IMG/VR virus record: IMGVR_UViG_2871745582_000001
Coordinates: 1 to 64,000 of that record
Source of the DNA: a virus
Lineage: Duplodnaviria > Caudoviricetes
DNA: 64,000 nt
Reading direction: 5' to 3' (one strand)
The translations under genes and the position numbers were made by a program. Of this stretch, positions 44,401 to 55,519 are shown piece by piece. The notes under the pieces were generated by a model. It did no database searches, was not told the DNA's origin, and was given only the letters and a program-made list of their open reading frames with translations. How positions within the stretch are numbered: position 1 is the first letter of the stretch; every line of letters starts with the position of its first letter.

Positions 44401-44907
44401 TCAGTTCCCGCCCGTATGGCCAAAGCCACCAGCGCCGCGCTGCGTTTCGCTGAGTTCGTTAACTTCATTAAACCTGACGCGATACGCCTCCTGTAGCTTG
44501 CCCTGTGCGATACGCTCGGAGATATTCGCGTCAACCAGTGTCGCCATGCCATACAGTTCTTTATAACCAGCGTCACTGTCAGCTGTCAGTGCGATCAGCA
44601 CTTCGCCACGGTAATCGCTGTCAATGACGCCTTCGCAGTTTGCCAGGCGGATATTGTGCTTAAAGCCGTGTCCGCTGCGCCCCACGATAACCATTTCCCA
44701 GCCGGGAGGTATTTCGAACGCCAGACCGGTAGTAAAGACGATCGTGCGGGCGTGCTCTCTGATGCACTCGACGCCCAGCGCAAAGAAATCAAAGCGCGCG
44801 GCACCCTCGGAGGCATAAACGGGAAGCCGGGCTTCAGGGCTGAGTTTTTTGACGGCCAGGTCAATGCACTTTACGCCAGTCGGGATAATCGTTTGTAAAT
44901 GGGTCAT
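44401..44907 (-). CDS. dut: Trimeric dUTPase
   Basis: GRSG, GVIDSDYRGE, RIAQ and RGAGGFGHTG motifs. Confidence 0.93.
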   Translation of the reverse strand: MTHLQTIIPTGVKCIDLAVKKLSPEARLPVYASEGAARFDFFALGVECIREHARTIVFTTGLAFEIPPGWEMVIVGRSGHGFKHNIRLANCEGVIDSDYRGEVLIALTADSDAGYKELYGMATLVDANISERIAQGKLQEAYRVRFNEVNELSETQRGAGGFGHTGGN

Positions 44908-47636: not shown

Positions 47637-48686
47637 TTAGTTGTCTTCCAGTATGCGCACCATGGCGCTGCCTTCAGATTCCAGGTTACGGATATAGGCG
47701 ATCACCATCTCCACGCGAGACCAGCCGCCCGCCTGCATAATCTCCGTCACCGATACACCAGCGCGCGCCATATCAACCGCGGCGCCAACGCGCGCACTGT
47801 GGCCAGACCAAGCCTGATAGCGCAAATCGGTCTTTTTCTTCCTGCCGTGCAGGCGTGAGTGCGCCGATTCAAACAGGGCTTCAAGCGAGCGGGGCGTTAA
47901 TGGCTTCTCAGCAGACGGAACCGGCGCGCCATTTTTAAGGATGCGGCAGAACAGATAATTATCCGGATCTTCCATCACGCCGGACACCTGCATCCAGCTG
48001 TCCACCAGCCCGGTAATGTCACGGCTCAGAGTCTTGAGTGTGCCCGCCGTGCTGACCAGCGTTTTGGTACGGCCAACACGGATCTGAATGCGCCCTTCAT
48101 CCGTGCGGGTAATGTCTTTGGCACGAATGCGGGATATTTCACTGATACGTAGTAGCGTGTTATACGCCAGCCCCAGGAATGCCAGCTCCCTAATCTCGGC
48201 GATTTCTTCTGTGCCGGCCAGCCGCCCGCGCAGCTTATCCAGATCGCGGCGCTGGAATGGCAGCGCCTGACCAGCCTGCTCGCCAGAGTCCACGTTCTCG
48301 CGCCGGATGCGGCGCATAACCAGGCTGACCGCGTTAGAATCGCTGGGCCGCGCCAGCCCGGCGCGCTTGTGGATGATATTGAGCATCTGCAGGTGCATGG
48401 TAATGGTTTTCACCGCCCGCCCCGCCGCCTGCAGGTGAAGCAGGTAATCCCTCACATCTTCCGACTGCGCCGGGAACCAGACGCGGCCACCCTCCTGGCA
48501 CCAGGCGGACCACTGGCGCGCCACCTGCATCAGCATCTTCCAGGTGTGCTCAGAAAAGCCGGTTTTGTCCCGGAACAGTTCGAACAGGTTGCGGCGCACC
48601 TCATCGCTGGTGGCCTCGACTGGCAGTGCGGGAAGATTGATATGAACGGGCGACGAATCAATCAGCGCCATGCTGTTTTTGGTCAT
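47637..48686 (-). CDS. cre: Cre-family tyrosine recombinase
   Basis: FSEHTWKML, SDSNAVSLVMRRIR, YNTLLRISE, GRTKT, WSGHSARVGAA and YIRNL motifs. Confidence 0.95.
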   Translation of the reverse strand: MTKNSMALIDSSPVHINLPALPVEATSDEVRRNLFELFRDKTGFSEHTWKMLMQVARQWSAWCQEGGRVWFPAQSEDVRDYLLHLQAAGRAVKTITMHLQMLNIIHKRAGLARPSDSNAVSLVMRRIRRENVDSGEQAGQALPFQRRDLDKLRGRLAGTEEIAEIRELAFLGLAYNTLLRISEISRIRAKDITRTDEGRIQIRVGRTKTLVSTAGTLKTLSRDITGLVDSWMQVSGVMEDPDNYLFCRILKNGAPVPSAEKPLTPRSLEALFESAHSRLHGRKKKTDLRYQAWSGHSARVGAAVDMARAGVSVTEIMQAGGWSRVEMVIAYIRNLESEGSAMVRILEDN

Positions 48687-48902
48687 GATATTCCCTAAAT
48701 AATGCGCGTCAGCAGCGACCAGAGAAGCGGGAATGATTTTTCCCTTTCCCCGGCAGCGTTGAAATAGGCCCAGCGCCCACGCCACAGCCGTATTGTCCCG
48801 TCACGGCGGGTAAGATGCCAGCCCTCTTTGACAAAACCTTTGGCGCGCCAGATGCCGCGCATTTTTTCAAGTTCCTGATTCTGGGCTACGTTCAAAGCTT
48901 TT

Positions 48903-51144: not shown

Positions 51145-51174
51145 CCCTCAGTGATCATAAAACCGCCCTTTTAA

Positions 51175-51208
51175 ATTCCTTCGTATAATTGGAGCTATAC
51201 GAAGTAAT
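51175..51208. other. lox-like recombination site
   Basis: ATTCCTTCGTATA-ATTGGAGC-TATACGAAGTAAT (13-8-13). Confidence 0.88.
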
Positions 51209-51324
51209 CCATGCCGGTGAGGATACAGACCCTCTTGCGTGCCGTCCATAATAATATGGAATTTTTTAGAGCAATGCATTATCGCCTTGCTGATTGCAAA
51301 ATGACCACATACGGAAATCGTGAA

Positions 51325-51353
51325 TTGACTGTAGCTCTAATCAAATATAATTT
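51325..51353 (+). promoter_or_regulatory. sigma70 promoter with an overlapping C1-like operator for the RNA cluster
   Basis: TTGACT...TATAAT/TAATTT with GTAGCTCTAATCAAAT in the spacer; second operator at 51259-51275. Confidence 0.6.
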
Positions 51354-51482
51354 ACGAACGGTCGGCAACGCAGGATGCGTTACTAAGCGCCAGGATGGCC
51401 GCCAGCAGTTCTGTAACATCAGGTGACCAGCCTACGGGCCTCCTTCACGTCTGCCAGTACGTGGATCAATACTGGCAACCCT

Positions 51483-51558
51483 GGCTCCTTAGCTCAGTTG
51501 GTAGAGCGGCACGTTGAAGGCGTGCGCGTCGCTGGTTCAATTCCAGCAGGAGCCACCA
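51483..51558 (+). tRNA. tRNA-Phe(GAA)
   Basis: Cloverleaf; anticodon arm GCACG-TTGAAGG-CGTGC; GTTCAA; CCA end. Confidence 0.88.
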
Positions 51559-51777
51559 TCATTAAGCGCACTATCAAACATCTTCGGCCTGGCGAAGTGG
51601 CGTAAAAGCTGGTGGTAGTGCGCTTAATGATGGGTGATTGCGGCCATGCGGCGCATTGAAGTAAAGGTTCCGCCCGGATCCTGACCTGATATGTCCCGCT
51701 GGCCACCAGCATCTATCCGGGTGACGCTTCCCGACAGACGTCCGCGCCCACTGCGCAGTGTGGGGAATACTGATTAT

Positions 51778-51852
51778 GGGTAGGTCGTATAAAGGCTATT
51801 ACGGTTGGCTGTTAACCAACTTATCCGGGTTCGAATCCCGGCCTTCCCGCCA
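51778..51852 (+). tRNA. tRNA-Asn(GTT)
   Basis: GTTGG-CTGTTAA-CCAAC; GTTCGAATC; CCA end; one acceptor-stem mismatch. Confidence 0.82.
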
Positions 51853-51961
51853 ACACAACAGGTAAGCAGCCTGACGAATGAACCGCCTGGCGGGGCGCTC
51901 GTGTTGTGAAACAGGCTGCTTTCCGTTGTGAAGATTTCCGCCTCTCCTACGGGGATCTGCT

Positions 51962-52034
51962 GGTGGCGTAGCATAACTAGTAATGCAGGACGTCATAAAC
52001 CCGCATATCGGTGCAAATCCGATCGCCACCACAC
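51962..52034 (+). pseudogene. Degenerate tRNA (CAT in loop, broken anticodon stem)
   Basis: Acceptor GGTGGCG/CGCCACC, D and T arms pair; anticodon stem does not. Confidence 0.6.
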
Positions 52035-52385
52035 AACACACAACGGTGAGAGCCCTGCATTGGTCATGACAGATGAGCCATTGGCAGCAATAGCAAAGAA
52101 GCTGCGCCTGGTTAGCCAGTGCTCTCAACCGTTGTGGTGATTAAAGCCCGGCAACCTTTCACGTTGCGCAGGGGAAACAGTCAGAGCGCGGACTGGAGGG
52201 AAACGGCGTTACTGCGGCATGAAAGGGTCGCCACTACAACACTAACCCGCAGGCTGGTTCAGTCTTCATAGACCATCAGTGCCTGCGCCGGATGGGGTAA
52301 CCGGCACACAATGGTGAGAGGGCTGAACAACAGGCGAGAACCGGCTAACCCGTAATGCCATCCGGTCGGGCAGCTCTCTCAACCA

Positions 52386-52529
52386 TTGTGGTGAATGCGC
52401 AGGCTGAAGCGCCATGTATGGGTGGTTCGACAATCGGCATTGCCATCCAGAGGCGACCTTTGCCGGATAGGTTGACGCCCCTGCGAGTATCTGGAAACGA
52501 ACGCCGGAGACCAGCACCGGCCACCACAA
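52386..52529 (+). ncRNA. tRNA-shaped RNA with large variable insert
   Basis: TTGTGGTG/CACCACAA closing stem, GCGCAGGCTGAAGCGC arm, GCCGGAGACCAGCACCGGC arm. Confidence 0.6.
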
Positions 52530-52604
52530 ACCAATTTGCACGGCCGGAGAGCTGGCCAGCGTGAAAGCGACTGCCGGGAATAAGCGCCGGCGTGCAAACA
52601 TTCT

Positions 52605-52680
52605 GGCCCTTTAGCTCAGCGGTTAGAGCAGGCGGCTCATAACCGCTTTGTCGCCGGTTCAAACCCGGCAAGGGCCACCA
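52605..52680 (+). tRNA. tRNA-Ile2(CAT), ileX-like
   Basis: GGCCCTTTAGCTCAG...CTCATAA...GGGCCACCA. Confidence 0.9.
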
Positions 52681-53116
52681 GCTTTTGCAGCCAGGCTGAC
52701 AACGTACTGTCGTAAACACTGCATTCCTCAATGAGTTGGCTAACTTGAGGCGGGGGCACTCCCTGTAATGTAGGTCCGACCTGCGGACGAGACGAGTGAT
52801 AGCCGTCCATCTGGTAAGTGGCTTAGTGCCTGCAACTGGATGGAATGGCAAGGGTGACGGGCGGAGAGAGTGCCGCACACAACGGAAAGAGCATTGATGA
52901 GTTGACGCCAGACCCAACGCTTAACGGCGTCAGGGATAGGATACAAATGAACAATGCTCTTCCCGTTGTGGTGACACAACAGATAGTTTTCATCAGGCAA
53001 TGCGGCTGTTTTTATCATCTAAAGATAAATGCAAACGATGATCTGATGTTGGCAGCGGCCTAAGAAACCAAACGCCACGGGGTATTCCAGTTCCCCGCCA
53101 CCGAATCTGGCGCACT

Positions 53117-53187
53117 GGCCCGGTGTGATTCCGAATGGGCACTTACTCAAACGTACCCTCGGCGGGTTCGATTCCCGACTAGGCCCG
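53117..53187 (+). pseudogene. Degenerate tRNA-like element
   Basis: T arm CGGGTTCGATTCCCG and partial acceptor stem; no clear anticodon arm. Confidence 0.4.
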
Positions 53188-53374
53188 GACGGCGACGGGG
53201 AGGGTCCATTTGAGTGGGTAACAACGGGCATATCGCCTTAGTAAATCCCGCATCGGTGCTGGGTTAATCGCCAGCCGTCCGCTCCACGAAACGGAGCACA
53301 CAACAGGCAAGAGCATTAACACCTGGCCGATGCATTCAATCAGAACGAGTGCATATTGGTTTAGTGCTCTTGCC

Positions 53375-53499
53375 GTTGTGGCGATTGCGCCTGCTGAGGC
53401 GACCCCGGAACGCGGCCGATCCCGAGGGGTGGAAGTGGCGAATATCGGGAAAAGAAGGCACTGCATTCCCTGCCGGAGATCAGCCCCGGCCGTCACAAC
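53375..53499 (+). ncRNA. Second tRNA-shaped RNA with variable insert
   Basis: GTTGTGGCG/CGTCACAAC stem, CGCCTGCTGAGGCG arm, GCCGGAGATCAGCCCCGGC arm. Confidence 0.6.
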
Positions 53500-53748
53500 T
53501 CAGGCCCGTAATTGTTATGCCAGTGATCCCTGCTGGTGGCCGTAAGTGGGGCATATGGCACATGTGGGCGCGGAGTCAGGCCGATAAACCTTTTTCGGCT
53601 ATATGGTTATCCGATTAAAGCAGAATGTGTAAGCCAGGGCTTTTCTGTTCTGCCTATTGAGCGCTTAGACAGCGCGGCGATTCGTCTTGACGGCTGGAAG
53701 AGACAGCAAACAACAGTTAAGCGCACTGCGCCAGGAAAGGCAGCGCGC

Positions 53749-54012
53749 TTAACTATTCTTTTTGGCGTTGTAAAAACCCAGGATGATTTGCGCCAGCTCA
53801 TCTTCATCTTCAGGCGTGTAGAGGTATGACACAGGAACGTTGAGAACCCGGGCAATTTTTCGCGCTGTGTCAAACGAAGGGCTATTGGTTCCGCTCTCGT
53901 AATAGGAAATGCGGGAGCGGGCAGTAGATTCATCGATCCCCACCAGCACCCCTAATTTTTCCTGAGTTAAATTGGCCCTGTGACGAGCCTCTCTGAGTCG
54001 GGCTGGAACCAT
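53749..54012 (-). CDS. XRE-family HTH regulator
   Basis: RLREAR...LTQEKLG...RISYYESG. Confidence 0.88.
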   Translation of the reverse strand: MVPARLREARHRANLTQEKLGVLVGIDESTARSRISYYESGTNSPSFDTARKIARVLNVPVSYLYTPEDEDELAQIILGFYNAKKNS

Positions 54013-54153
54013 GATAATGCGCCTAAATTAATTTGCCGCATGTTTACCACGACTTCCCAAAAATTGTGTTGAGAATCCATCAACCCTTGATGTTGAGAAA
54101 AAATCAACCTTTTCAAAAACATCAAAATTACTTAGACTCAGAGCCATCTTTTA

Positions 54154-54169: not shown

Positions 54170-54375
54170 GTTTTAACTGCAATTTTTCTGTAAAATTCTT
54201 TGCAGTTTCTTACACGCACTCTTATGATGGGCTCGGTTCCAAAATAAGACGAATCTGATGTTTTGTACGCTTTCTGAAAGGAATGAACCGAATGATCGGG
54301 GAAGTAAGTTTTCAACAATCTGCCTTTAACCACAGCCACAAAGCCAATGGCGTGCATCACTTCAATGGAACAGTA

Positions 54376-54591
54376 ATGGTCACCTCTTTCCCCACAGCTG
54401 ACGATGTCATTTCTTATTCTAAAAAATTATTTATTGACTTGAATCATCCTGCTGCTGCCACTGCCATTACAAAGCATTACCTTATCTTAACAGGCCGCTA
54501 TAATGCGCCTCGCAAAGAAAAAGCAGCCATAGAGACGGCCATGCGCTCAGTTATTAGCCTGCTGGTTACGAATCCTCCGAAACCGCTCTAA
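54376..54591 (+). CDS. coi: C1 inactivator
   Basis: PTADDV...AITKHY...LVTN resembles P1 Coi; immediately before c1. Confidence 0.7.
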   Translation: MVTSFPTADDVISYSKKLFIDLNHPAAATAITKHYLILTGRYNAPRKEKAAIETAMRSVISLLVTNPPKPL

Positions 54592-54670
54592 AAAAAACAA
54601 TTTTTTAGAGATCTTATTCTGACAACGATCTACTATTGCCCGACAACAGATACTAATTTTGGAGCATATA

Positions 54671-55519
54671 GTGGTCGATTACATCAAGGGTGAAACGCTT
54701 TATCGCGAATTCATTGAATTCCGTTATGGCTTCATTAGCCGTGCTATCGCGCGCGCGAGCCATACTGATGTTACCAGCGACGGTCGCCAGGTGCGGCCGG
54801 TTGTTGTTTTACCCTTCCGCGAAGTTGAAAAGATTCAGGTTGAGATCGACCGGTGGTCTGCGCTGGTGGCTGAACTTGAGCAATACCCGGATCTGGGCAT
54901 CCCTAAAACTCTGCTCTACCCCATCCCGGCTATCATTCGCGGAGTGCGCAAGGCTACGGCTTACAATACAGAAGCTATTAACAGCCGGAACGTTACCGCT
55001 GGCCACCTTGTTCATCTCATTGATAAAGACATCCGCGGACAGAAAAAAGGGCCAGTGACTCCTGCGGCAGAGGCCTACATTGCCAGCCTTGAGAAGGCAC
55101 GCAAACAGCTCGCTTCTTACCCGGACGATGAGCCTATGCGCATGCGTATTCACGGCTACCGCGAAACGTTGCTGAACCTCAATTACATATCCACCAGCCC
55201 CAACTATAAAAATGGCCGGAAACAGTCCTATCACGTCCCGGCATGCGGCGTATTCATCTGCGATGAGACCTTGCGTGATGGCCTGACAATTGGCCCCAGC
55301 ACTGAAAAGCAGCCATACAGCGTTTACGATGCTGTCGAGCCGATCACCTGCAGCCGCTGGCCAACAGCGAAAATTTACCGCACCGCTGATATTGAAGAGG
55401 TCAAAGCCTCCCGCACAGACGGCGCGGATGCAGAAACGCCTAAATCACTGACAGAATCCCCGCGCGCTCATAAGGCGTCCCGCAAAATTAAAACCGCTCT
55501 GCCAGTAAGCGGGCAGTAA
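54671..55519 (+). CDS. c1: C1 primary repressor
   Basis: DGRQVRPVVVLPF, ELEQYPDL and CGVFICDETLRDG, as in P1 C1. Confidence 0.93.
   Translation: MVDYIKGETLYREFIEFRYGFISRAIARASHTDVTSDGRQVRPVVVLPFREVEKIQVEIDRWSALVAELEQYPDLGIPKTLLYPIPAIIRGVRKATAYNTEAINSRNVTAGHLVHLIDKDIRGQKKGPVTPAAEAYIASLEKARKQLASYPDDEPMRMRIHGYRETLLNLNYISTSPNYKNGRKQSYHVPACGVFICDETLRDGLTIGPSTEKQPYSVYDAVEPITCSRWPTAKIYRTADIEEVKASRTDGADAETPKSLTESPRAHKASRKIKTALPVSGQ

What the first reader, a model, noticed from the sequence alone, without database searches (positions are those of the whole stretch)
51360..53754. Phage-encoded polycistronic small-RNA array: conserved processing stems with swappable cargo, interleaved with tRNAs
Seen: about 2.4 kb with no credible ORF lies between lox and coi, behind a promoter overlapped by a C1-like operator. 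Five long hairpins share conserved arms (CACAAC(A)GGWRAGAGC... / ...GCTCTYNCCGTTGTG) but have unrelated ~40-60 nt loops: 51854-51930, 52039-52136, 52307-52390, 52878-52970 and 53299-53380. Arm differences are compensatory (AAGCAGCCTG/CAGGCTGCTT; CACAATGG/CCATTGTG), so pairing is conserved. A further 21-bp stem (51556-51633) and a related one (53715-53754) share TTAAGCGCACT. Recalled, unverified: a similar single stem lies in the lambda late leader, and RNase III releases DicF from the Qin dicB operon. Inference: one lytic transcript is cut by RNase III/P/E into several distinct sRNAs, possibly acting as regulators or anti-defence decoys.
Basis: partly seen in the sequence, partly recalled or inferred. 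Interest (0 to 1): 0.88.

Follow-up and report, generated by a model that had tools for sequence, protein, structure and literature searches.

The report
Phage array of hairpin-framed small RNAs
A P1-like plasmid prophage carries a 2.4-kb gene-free operon of tRNAs, tRNA-shaped RNAs and a tmRNA look-alike, separated by one recurring long RNA hairpin that also sits unannotated in phages lambda, P1 and HK620; its job, probably marking where the transcript is cut and capping the pieces, is untested.

Summary
Each folds better than 200 of 200 shuffles. A covariance model finds this hairpin type nowhere else in the 64-kb window.

They belong to a family that Rfam 15 lacks. Its roughly 19-bp stem covaries: 16 of 19 pairs change on both sides. 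The family occurs in lambda just after tR', four times in P1, twice in the HK620 late leader, and in many viral contigs.

Between the hairpins lie three tRNAs, one defective tRNA-like gene, tRNA-shaped shells with kissing loops and exchangeable inserts, and a headless tmRNA-like RNA with a 10-codon tag and two pseudoknots.

Best reading: a repressor-controlled, non-coding, polycistronic operon whose stems frame, cap and delimit small RNAs. The nucleases (RNase III, P, E) and any regulatory or decoy role are inferred, not shown. No transcript ends were seen.

This scan has reported the same families before on other DNA.

Verdict: real, apparently undescribed, mechanism open.

The parts
51325..51351 (+). 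Putative promoter (TTGACT, 15-nt spacer, TATAAT) with a C1-operator-like core at 51334-51346
   Evidence: Read. The operator core pattern occurs 7 times in the window against 0.01 expected, one of them here. The tool's promoter scan did not list it because the spacer is too short. A C1 homologue is encoded at 54659-55519.
51483..51558 (+). tRNA-Phe (GAA)
   Evidence: ARAGORN; Rfam tRNA 63.3 bits. Its CCA end is paired into the next hairpin.
51556..51633 (+). Framing hairpin H0 (variant arms, 21-bp stem)
   Evidence: -42.9 kcal/mol, z -7.0. Model R1 gives 39.4 bits on + against 34.6 on - (it is a training row).
51778..51852 (+). tRNA-Asn (GUU)
   Evidence: ARAGORN; Rfam 57.8 bits. H1 starts 1 nt after its CCA.
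51854..51930 (+). Framing hairpin H1
   Evidence: z -4.8; R1 56.0 bits, + strand only. tRNA-Asn plus H1 is shared with 6-11 fetched loci.
51962..52031 (+). tRNA-like gene with a poor anticodon arm
   Evidence: Rfam tRNA 40.6 bits, with 12 nt in place of the 15 model positions of the anticodon arm. Not called by ARAGORN.
52039..52136 (+). Framing hairpin H2
   Evidence: z -3.9; R1 45.1 bits on + against 34.7 on -.
52131..52240 (+). Stem-closed unit (three-way junction). Its closing stem reuses the 3' arm of H2.
   Evidence: Fold; the energy is not better than shuffles (z -0.1). The closing stem is 9 bp. The start of the unit is shared with 5 fetched loci.
52307..52390 (+). Framing hairpin H3
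   Evidence: z -4.7; R1 51.6 bits on + against 33.6 on -.
52386..52529 (+). tRNA-shaped shell A: 8-bp closing stem, D-like and T-like hairpins with complementary loops, about 90-nt insert
   Evidence: Alignment A2 and pair counts. Its ends recur around other inserts in metagenome contigs and in 79 and 22 fetched loci.
52605..52680 (+). tRNA with anticodon CAU
   Evidence: ARAGORN; Rfam 68.8 bits. 88% identical to a host tRNA gene.
52878..52970 (+). Framing hairpin H4
   Evidence: z -7.0; R1 57.6 bits on + against 47.5 on -.
52965..52980 (+). Mini hairpin (6-bp stem, 4-nt loop) that reuses the 3' foot of H4: an 'empty' closing stem
   Evidence: Listed as stem-loop-stem. The same arrangement is in locus L079.
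52981..53140 (+). Headless tmRNA-like RNA: 5' arm, 10-codon tag frame 53031-53060 with stop 53061-53063, pseudoknot A 53078-53110, pseudoknot B 53111-53140
   Evidence: Tag ANDDLMLAAA. Weak Rfam hits to tmRNA_permuted (21.7 bits) and beta_tmRNA (16.2 bits), both below gathering. Pseudoknots covary. No tmRNA call by ARAGORN.
53141..53219 (+). H-like long hairpin with a T-arm-like loop element
   Evidence: -41.3 kcal/mol, z -2.2, 6 of 200 shuffles as good. Not hit by R1 at E<=1.
53299..53380 (+). Framing hairpin H5
   Evidence: z -7.7; R1 61.4 bits on + against 41.5 on -.
53376..53498 (+). tRNA-shaped shell B
   Evidence: Alignment A2. It carries the compensatory changes in the closing stem relative to shell A.
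53715..53764 (+). Terminal stem sharing its upper arm with H0, followed by a U-run: probable terminator of the array
   Evidence: -23.2 kcal/mol, z -4.0. R1 gives 20.9 bits on + and 24.7 on -, untrained. Not listed by the terminator scan, whose loop limit is 8.

Best explanation
The stretch is a non-coding, polycistronic RNA operon of a 94-kb P1-like plasmid prophage. It is read on the + strand from a promoter that the phage's C1-type repressor probably shuts off, and it ends at the stem plus U-run at 53715-53764.

Its units are real tRNAs, tRNA-shaped RNAs without an anticodon, and a tmRNA-like RNA without the tRNA-like half. They are separated by one recurring RNA element: a hairpin of about 19 bp. 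The hairpin has a lower 6-bp foot, then a bulged A and a U-U mismatch, then an upper 10-13-bp helix, around a 40-130-nt interior.

Proposed mechanism, all inferred:
1. Each hairpin folds as it is transcribed and insulates its neighbours.
2. Host endonucleases then cut at or near the foot. I expect RNase P at the 5' end of the downstream tRNA or shell, whose first bases are the hairpin's own 3' foot. I expect RNase III, or RNase E, at the irregular zone between foot and upper helix.
3. The foot strands become short leader and trailer pieces that are trimmed away.
4. The interior stays capped by the conserved upper helix as a discrete small stable RNA.

The interiors and shell inserts are the variable payload. 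Several mimic parts of the translation apparatus (T arms, an initiator-type anticodon arm, the tmRNA tag template).

My odds:
- RNA-level framing element of a processed array: about 0.8.
- RNase III is the enzyme that cuts the stem: about 0.45.
- The interiors are functional RNAs rather than filler: about 0.6.
For: Structure at the RNA level:
- In 40 hairpins, 94.0% of cells pair, against 36-53% when partners are slid.
- 16 of 19 pairs change on both sides, and 0 of 500 shuffles reach any measure.
- G-U cells outnumber A-C cells 45 to 4.
- All six window hairpins score higher on the + strand.
- In the 11 oriented loci that carry tRNAs, the tRNAs lie on the hairpin's strand.

Framing position:
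- H1 starts 1 nt after the CCA of tRNA-Asn, and H0 pairs the CCA of tRNA-Phe.
- 11 of 139 H-like hairpins in the fetched loci start within 5 nt of a tRNA 3' end, and 1 ends inside a tRNA 5' end.
- In 11 of 20 loci chosen only by the tmRNA-like tag, a model hit starts within 3 nt of that RNA's 3' end. 18 of the 20 have a hit at E<=1e-4.

Interlock:
- The 3' foot of H2, H3 and H5 is also the 5' strand of the closing stem of the next unit.

Operon context:
- No ORF has a family match.
- An operator-like core lies in the promoter, and a C1 homologue is encoded nearby.
- A terminal stem with a U-run closes the array.

Same design elsewhere:
- P1 has the tmRNA-like RNA, four hairpins and two tRNAs behind its C1-controlled Pban.
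- HK620 has two hairpins, the tmRNA-like RNA and a shell between qut and the late terminator.
- Lambda has one hairpin 6 nt after the tR' U-run.

Precedent for stable products:
- The T5 record annotates eight 'stable RNAs' among its tRNA genes.
- One of them, RNAIII, abuts tRNA-His, and its predicted fold is closed by a 12-bp stem.
Against: - No transcript, 5' end or 3' end was seen. The only RNA-library evidence is three read-length contigs identical to the window in two runs, which may be DNA carry-over.
- No nuclease was tested.
- The rows of alignment A1 were picked by a script that required pairing, and many loci were fetched with the canonical 3' arm as bait. This inflates the pairing percentage and the apparent sequence conservation.
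- The annotated ends of T5 RNAIII include the whole stem. That fits cutting at the foot rather than RNase III cutting inside the stem.
- Only 12 of 139 H-like hairpins touch a canonical tRNA.
- The foot sequence is conserved more than pairing alone needs (32-36 of 40 identical at each foot pair).
- The tool's promoter scan found no + strand promoter.
Confidence: 0.55

Rival explanations
1. The hairpins are not cut inside the stem. Each whole hairpin, stem included, is the product: a small stable RNA whose long stem only protects the interior from exonucleases, much as a tRNA scaffold protects an inserted RNA. The ends are made at the foot by RNase P, RNase E and 3' trimming alone. The bulged A and the U-U mismatch would then be features that keep RNase III off.
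For: - The T5 record annotates RNAIII as a stable RNA lying directly beside tRNA-His.
- Its annotated ends coincide with the ends of a predicted 12-bp closing stem.
- The irregularities are conserved: U-U in 24 of 40 rows, and a bulge column present in most rows.
- The shells show the same scaffold-plus-insert logic.
Against: - Stems of 19-21 bp, many of them perfect palindromes, are long enough to be RNase III substrates by established knowledge of the E. coli enzyme.
- T5 RNAIII is only a weak match to the model (13.2 bits, E 0.03), and its stem is much shorter.
- No ends were mapped here.
Confidence: 0.3
2. The conserved arms act mainly at the DNA level. They would be short shared linkers at which unrelated phages recombine, or remnants of a small mobile cassette, and this shuffles RNA modules. 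The hairpin as RNA would be incidental.
For: - The foot sequence is nearly invariant.
- The same interior occurs with different flanks and different downstream units.
- The same shell ends enclose different inserts in 11 and 3 metagenome contigs, and one joint links the 5' end of shell A to the 3' end of shell B.
- The elements are spread over unrelated phage groups.
Against: - The upper stem keeps pairing through many different sequences: 16 of 19 pairs with double changes.
- G-U is favoured over A-C 45 to 4 on the tRNA strand, and the strand-specific model scores agree. A duplex DNA site would not show this.
- There are no copies elsewhere in the 5.35-Mb host genome.
- I saw no target-site duplication at the flanks and no transposase or integron integrase beside the array.
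- Recombination at conserved stems can coexist with an RNA role.
Confidence: 0.1
3. The hairpins are transcription signals (pause, attenuation, or protection of a long untranslated transcript from Rho) rather than processing or product elements.
For: - A 2.4-kb untranslated transcript needs some protection from Rho, by established knowledge.
- In lambda and HK620 the hairpins lie in the Q-antiterminated late leader.
- The last stem of the array, which shares its upper arm with H0, is followed by a U-run.
Against: - None of the five hairpins is followed by a U-run, and the terminator scan lists none of them.
- The same hairpin occurs inside tRNA arrays of virulent phages with their own promoters.
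- This reading does not explain conserved families of interiors.
Confidence: 0.05

Closest known systems
Stable RNAs of unknown function in the tRNA gene region of coliphage T5 (RNAIII, RNAI, RNA1, RNA2, RNA3 and others, as annotated in NC_005859.1). The species 1 and 2 RNAs of phage T4 are similar but are recalled here, not checked.
   Same: Small non-coding RNAs are interleaved with phage tRNA genes on the same strand. Some are described by the depositors as tRNA-like. RNAIII abuts a tRNA, and its predicted fold is closed by a long-range stem.
   Different: The hairpin model gives only 13.2 bits (E 0.03) on RNAIII. The T5 stem is 12 bp and AU-rich, not the conserved 19-bp stem. T5 shows no shared frame around different interiors in the stretch examined.
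RNase III processing stems: leader-trailer helices of rRNA operons and the sites between phage T7 early genes (established knowledge, recalled)
   Same: Long, mostly regular double-stranded stems with a conserved irregular zone are repeated between the units of one long transcript. What lies inside or between them is the product.
   Different: Cleavage is not shown here. The stems frame 40-130-nt interiors rather than rRNAs or mRNAs. The same stem sequence is shared by unrelated phages. The 3' foot doubles as the acceptor strand of the next tRNA-like unit.
Leader of the phage P1 ban operon (AF234173.1: Pban with C1 operator, 'dicF-like region', tRNA-Asn, tRNA-Thr)
   Same: Both are C1-type repressor-controlled non-coding stretches with tRNA-Asn, the tmRNA-like RNA and the same hairpin family. 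P1 has four hairpins.
   Different: In this phage the array lies between the lox-like site and the immunity genes, not ahead of ban. It has more units, in a different order: seven stems and three to four tRNA genes. It has no DicF match. In P1 three of the hairpins lie under the annotated plp and upl genes of the other strand.
tmRNA (Rfam RF00023; coding piece of permuted tmRNA RF04321)
   Same: The unit at 52981-53140 has an A-rich lead-in, a 10-codon tag frame beginning GCA AAC GA and ending in small hydrophobic residues plus a stop, and pseudoknots after it. The host's own tmRNA tag is ANDENYALAA.
   Different: No acceptor stem, T arm or CCA end was found. ARAGORN calls no tmRNA. Rfam scores are far below gathering: 21.7 against 47 and 16.2 against 84. 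It has two pseudoknots, not four.
tRNA-linked small RNAs released by tRNA-processing enzymes, such as the tRNA-miRNA units of murine gammaherpesvirus 68 (recalled, not checked), and the laboratory 'tRNA scaffold' for expressing RNAs (recalled)
   Same: A tRNA-shaped fold sits next to or around another small RNA, which could recruit tRNA-processing enzymes and give stability.
   Different: Those are a eukaryotic virus and an engineered device. Processing here is only inferred.

Membership tests
tRNA (Rfam RF00005) | Cloverleaf scored above the family's gathering score, or called by ARAGORN | tested here: met
   Three genes are called by ARAGORN. Four are above 29 bits in Rfam: 68.8, 63.3, 57.8 and 40.6. 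The fourth lacks a proper anticodon arm.
Any other Rfam 15 family (DicF, STnc100, C4, CRISPR repeats and the rest) | Match at or above the gathering score | tested here: not met
   The window gives tRNAs only. At E<=5 nothing else comes near its threshold. In 19 related loci, no family lies on the hairpins, shells or tmRNA-like RNA.
tmRNA | Tag reading frame entered without a start codon and ended by a stop | tested here: met
   A 10-codon frame plus stop is present in 8 of 8 copies found by nucleotide similarity. In Mijalis an in-frame TAG lies upstream with no start codon between it and the frame (read by eye). Copies differ by third-position changes. The 96 unique copies all have 10 codons, but the search pattern fixed that length.
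tmRNA | Pseudoknots after the tag | tested here: met
   Two pseudoknots. Their helices pair in 97.9, 94.6, 100 and 81.3% of cells, and each of the four helices has 2-3 pairs changed on both sides. The rows were chosen by the tag only.
tmRNA | tRNA-like domain: acceptor stem, T arm, 3' CCA | tested here: not met
   ARAGORN makes no tmRNA call on the window, nor, with its tmRNA option on, in the 47 oriented sequences, which included the window on both strands. Rfam scores are 21.7 and 16.2 bits, below gathering. None was seen in the alignment.
RNase III processing stem | About two turns of mostly regular double-stranded RNA, conserved as structure | tested here: met
   19 model pairs, 94% paired, with covariation. 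Many relatives have perfect 20-bp stems.
RNase III processing stem | Cleavage by RNase III in vivo or in vitro | not testable with these tools
   No raw RNA reads of an induced lysogen were available. The runs laid are contigs only.
   The six window hairpins score 39.4-61.4 bits, but they were training rows. Hits outside the training rows: lambda 63.2 bits (though its hairpin is nearly identical to training row L072), P1 44.3-64.7 (four hits; three P1-like contig rows were in the training set), HK620 49.1 and 37.6, Mijalis 31.2, pAh6-C 27.6. The H-like hairpin at 53141-53219 is not hit.
Intrinsic terminator | GC-rich stem followed by a U-run | tested here: met
   53715-53754 is a stem of -23.2 kcal/mol followed by a U-run.
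CRISPR array | Direct repeats separated by spacers, with cas genes or a repeat family match | tested here: not met
   The shared arms are inverted, not direct. The best CRISPR repeat hit is 18.4 bits against a threshold of 39, E 2.
Miniature inverted-repeat transposable element | Terminal inverted repeats with target duplications and scattered genomic copies | tested here: not met
   The arm motifs pair up as hairpins only inside the array. The shell 3' motif and the tag motif occur only there in the 5.35-Mb genome. I saw no duplication at the flanks.
C1-controlled operon of P1-type phages | C1 repressor gene plus an operator over the promoter | tested here: inconclusive
   The C1 homologue is 55% identical over 98% of its length. 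The operator core lies at 51334-51346 inside the putative promoter. The full 17-base consensus needs 5 mismatches there, and repression was not tested.

The most novel reading that the evidence does not exclude
The array is a phage tool-kit of scaffolded RNA mimics of the translation apparatus. Two standard frames (the 19-bp hairpin and the anticodon-less tRNA-shaped shell) would display exchangeable RNA payloads: T-arm and initiator-anticodon-arm look-alikes, and a headless tmRNA whose 5' arm is partly antisense to the host tmRNA tag. The payloads would act as decoys or blockers for host tRNA-directed nucleases, tRNA-binding factors and ribosome rescue. The overlapping foot and acceptor pairings would set the order in which host RNase P and RNase III release them. 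Phages would trade payloads as cassettes at the conserved frames.
Probability: 0.2. Interest if true: 0.9.

Novelty: new variant of a known kind. Interest (0 to 1): 0.74.

Why it matters
If this reading is right, some of the best-studied phages (lambda, P1, HK620) and hundreds of others carry an unlisted family of structured RNAs in stretches long treated as empty leaders or spacers.

The family offers a natural frame-plus-payload design for making small stable RNAs. It could explain how phages mature tRNA arrays. It also points to RNA payloads that imitate tRNA parts and tmRNA, that is, to phage interference with host translation control or with tRNA-directed defence.

The question is directly testable: lambda has a single copy at a known place, in a system where rnc, rne and rnpA mutants and induction protocols exist.

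For annotation, it flags open reading frames laid over such arrays, such as plp and upl of P1, as doubtful.

Tried and rejected
- Whole-array relatives. Megablast of 51150-54050 found only short partial matches in phages (21 records, each covering 4% or less), plasmids (1 record, a tRNA piece) and complete E. coli genomes (13 of 5426). In 401 genomes of the host's family only tRNA-like pieces and two copies of the tmRNA-like RNA matched. The array as a whole has no close relative in these collections.

- Protein-coding reading: rejected.

- Rfam: no family fits.

- Targets of the payloads. 20 loops, inserts and spacers were compared with the host genome without the phage contig. The best match has E 0.024, which is chance level for 20 queries.

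- Antisense arm of the tmRNA-like RNA, a lead from earlier notes. The host tmRNA carries an 11-mer in its tag frame that the window's 5' arm complements in 10 of 11 positions (read). The RNAduplex energy was matched or beaten by 72 of 500 shuffles, and other parts of the array scored better. It is not significant in this window on its own.

- Expression. The one lay of reads used contigs of four runs. The two wastewater runs labelled RNA-Seq are probably DNA. Parts without cover mean nothing. The identical contigs in X17 and X20 are not proof of transcription.

- Two statistics of my own were uninformative. Ungapped 18-nt stems downstream of the tmRNA-like RNA: 11 of 39 above all shuffles, too strict because of the bulge. 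Counts of long-range pairs in MFE folds: 35 of 40 real against 32 of 40 shuffled.

- Energy z-scores of the inter-hairpin units are mostly not better than shuffles.

- Literature. The seven searches found no description of these hairpins, the shells or an enterobacterial-phage tmRNA-like RNA.
  - Hudson, Lau and Williams 2014 (PMC4131195, passages read) list phage ssrA genes only in mycobacteriophages and Bacillus phage G.
  - The Pas sRNA preprint (10.64898/2026.05.13.724894; outline with abstract, and sections 15 and 17 read) concerns other sRNAs of the Q-to-lysis region.
  - The P22 sRNA paper (PMC13397905; outline with abstract, and sections 7 and 12 read) gives no overlap that I could check.
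  - The P1 genome paper is not held.

- coi: the 102-aa ORF at 54283-54591 has no phage match and no Pfam family.

Full report
**What is there.**

The window is the first 64 kb of a 94,409-bp contig. That contig encodes a C1 repressor homologue 55% identical to those of P1-type phages, a tyrosine recombinase, a large terminase, and nine close matches to a 17-base P1 operator consensus against 0.11 expected. It is therefore a distant P1-like plasmid prophage.

Between a lox-like inverted repeat near 51181-51208 and a convergent 87-aa XRE-type gene (53749-54012) lies 2.4 kb in which none of the nine largest ORFs has a PHROGs or Pfam match.

ARAGORN finds tRNA-Phe, tRNA-Asn and a CAU tRNA, all on the + strand. 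Rfam adds a fourth, defective tRNA-like gene and nothing else above threshold.

**The observation.**

- Each folds better than all 200 shuffles, with z from -3.9 to -7.7.
- The shared 3' arm occurs three times against 0.02 expected.
- A covariance model (R1) built from 40 hairpins of this type hits the 64-kb window only inside 51555-53760: the six trained hairpins and the untrained terminal stem.
- Every window hairpin scores higher on the + strand than on the - strand.

**The hairpin is a widespread RNA family.**

41 of them carry the full hairpin: the conserved 5' arm, 40-130 variable bases, then the conserved 3' arm.

A second set of loci was fetched only by the tag of the tmRNA-like RNA. 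It holds many more hairpins, with quite different upper-stem sequences that still pair.

On 40 hairpins (alignment A1):
- 94.0% of cells pair, against 36-53% with slid partners.
- 16 of 19 pairs show changes on both sides.
- No shuffle in 500 reaches any measure.
- One position is a U-U mismatch in 24 of 40 rows, and a bulged A precedes it.
- G-U cells outnumber A-C cells 45 to 4.

Caveats: the rows were picked by a script that demanded pairing, and the first scan was baited with the canonical arm. Pairing percentage and arm conservation are therefore overstated. The variety of compensatory pairs and the strand asymmetry are not so easily explained away.

Named phages carry the family:
- Lambda at 44787-44862, 63.2 bits, 6 nt after the U-run of tR'.
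- P1 four times.
- HK620 twice, between qut and the late terminator.
- A Felix O1-like phage and an Aeromonas phage, more weakly.

The HK620 leader matches 756 phage records, mostly through the tmRNA-like part. It also matches 154 of 5426 complete E. coli genomes; of the 25 records listed, 23 have no annotated feature under the match and 2 have a hypothetical protein. Rfam gives no family for these elements in 19 loci.

**What lies between the hairpins.**

(a) Shells. After H3 and H5 come units that open with an 8-bp strand overlapping the hairpin's 3' foot. The order is then a 4-bp D-like hairpin, a variable insert, a 5-bp T-like hairpin with a 9-nt loop, and the complementary closing strand.
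- In 21 shells the four helices pair in 100, 91.7, 88.1 and 95.2% of cells. The 88.1% is a loop-loop (kissing) pairing that the picking script did not require.
- Double changes are few: 8 cells.
- Relatives with the same acceptor strands have ordinary D and T arms, so the shells look tRNA-derived.
- Metagenome contigs carry the same shell ends around other inserts: the joint 52412 to 52503 occurs in 11 contigs of one run and 3 of another, with other letters in between.

(b) A headless tmRNA-like RNA at 52981-53140.
- It has a 10-codon frame, ANDDLMLAAA, plus a stop. Eight of eight copies found by nucleotide similarity keep ten codons.
- The 96 unique copies also do, but the search pattern fixed that length.
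- Two pseudoknots follow. Their helices pair in 97.9, 94.6, 100 and 81.3% of cells, in rows chosen by the tag alone.
- I found no tRNA-like half.

(c) An H-like hairpin with a T-arm-like loop at 53141-53219, and a stem-closed unit at 52131-52240.

Interiors of hairpins in other phages include T-arm look-alikes and an initiator-type anticodon arm. The latter recurs with different flanks and different downstream units.

**How it most likely works.**

Shown: RNA-level conservation of the stems, their position flush with RNA gene ends, the interlock with the next unit, and the operon context.
- H1 starts 1 nt after the CCA of tRNA-Asn, and H0 pairs the CCA of tRNA-Phe.
- 11 of 139 H-like hairpins directly follow a tRNA and 1 runs into one.
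- In 11 of 20 tag-selected loci a model hit starts within 3 nt of the tmRNA-like RNA's end.

Inferred: the stems insulate folding and define cutting places. RNase P would cut at the 5' end of the downstream tRNA or shell, which lies in the hairpin's 3' foot. RNase III or RNase E would cut at the irregular zone above the foot. The interior would remain capped by the upper helix as a small stable RNA.

The T5 record is the nearest precedent. It lists eight stable RNAs among the tRNA genes, and one (RNAIII) is predicted to be closed by a 12-bp stem and abuts tRNA-His. RNAIII is only a weak model match, and its annotated ends keep the whole stem. This favours the rival reading that the hairpins are whole products cut only at the foot.

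I could not see transcripts. The only hints are three read-length contigs identical to the window in two RNA libraries.

**Rivals.**

A DNA-level role as recombination linkers fits the invariant foot and the cassette-like exchange. It does not fit the covariation, the G-U bias or the strand-specific scores, and there are no other copies in the host genome.

A transcription-signal role is unlikely. None of the five hairpins has a U-run, and the same hairpin occurs in tRNA arrays of virulent phages.

**Comparison and novelty.**

The design combines known ideas: phage tRNA clusters with extra stable RNAs, and RNase III-type framing stems. It does so with RNA families that Rfam 15 does not hold and that seven literature searches did not find. 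The P1 genome paper and all supplements could not be read.

This scan has reported the same families on other DNA several times: framing hairpins in P1, the headless tmRNA-like RNA, and stem-framed cassettes. One check of a related claim is recorded there as 'part of it fell'; I could not see which part.

What this window adds:
- The richest array seen here: seven stems of the family plus one H-like hairpin.
- A new location in a P1-type genome.
- Confirmation that lambda itself carries the hairpin.

I rate it a new variant of a known kind, real and interesting, with the mechanism still open.

Noticed in passing
L270 988-1063 (lambda NC_001416.1 44787-44862): Phage lambda carries a canonical copy of the hairpin 6 nt after the tR' U-run. 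It overlaps the 3' end of the annotated orf-64 and is followed by what looks like a decayed shell.
   Followed up: partly
L150 2105-2191, 2331-2424, 2607-2685 (P1 AF234173.1 69184-69764): Three of P1's four hairpins lie, on the tRNA strand, under the annotated plp and upl genes of the opposite strand. The first starts 1 nt after tRNA-Thr. Those two ORFs may be over-annotations of an RNA array.
   Followed up: no
window 52981-53029 and L266 1501-1864 (host ssrA): The 5' arm of the tmRNA-like RNA complements 10 of 11 bases within the tag frame of the host's own tmRNA. In most other phages the match looks longer by eye. In this window alone it is not significant.
   Followed up: partly
window 51181-51208 and 47637-48785: A lox-like site (9-bp inverted arms around an 8-bp spacer) lies 2.4 kb from a Cre-like tyrosine recombinase gene (Pfam Phage_integrase, E 4.6e-24).
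   Followed up: no
window 53749-54012 (-) and 54283-54591 (+): The gene that abuts the array is an XRE-type HTH protein. The 102-aa ORF between it and c1 has no Pfam family and no match in the phage collection, so 'coi' is not identified here.
   Followed up: partly
window 18312, 26564, 27845, 31127, 31152, 44053, 47578, 51259, 61480: Nine operator-like sites (3 mismatches or fewer to a 17-base consensus) against 0.11 expected: a map of the C1-type regulon of this phage.
   Followed up: no
L010 999-1217 (G280:C15): In another genome of the host's family, the tmRNA-like RNA and a hairpin lie next to two tRNAs and an abiF RNA motif (Rfam RF03085, 59.4 bits).
   Followed up: no
L151 about 1130-1190 (Escherichia phage VpaE1): In this Felix O1-like phage the tmRNA-like RNA sits inside the tRNA array behind its own near-consensus promoter (TTGACA, 17 nt, TATAGT). 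In Mijalis it starts directly at the 3' end of tRNA-Ile.
   Followed up: no
window 52389-52412 with 52503-52529, and 53467-53498: Wastewater metagenome contigs join the 5' end of shell A to the 3' end of shell A or of shell B around other inserts. Shells with other payloads are therefore common in that habitat's phages.
   Followed up: no
L269 3285-3645, 4809-4980, 5839-6084, 6878-6950 (T5 NC_005859.1): T5's annotated stable RNAs of unknown function (RNAIII, RNAI, RNA1, RNA2H, RNAIV, RNA2, RNA3, RNAX) would be worth comparing systematically with the hairpin and shell families.
   Followed up: partly
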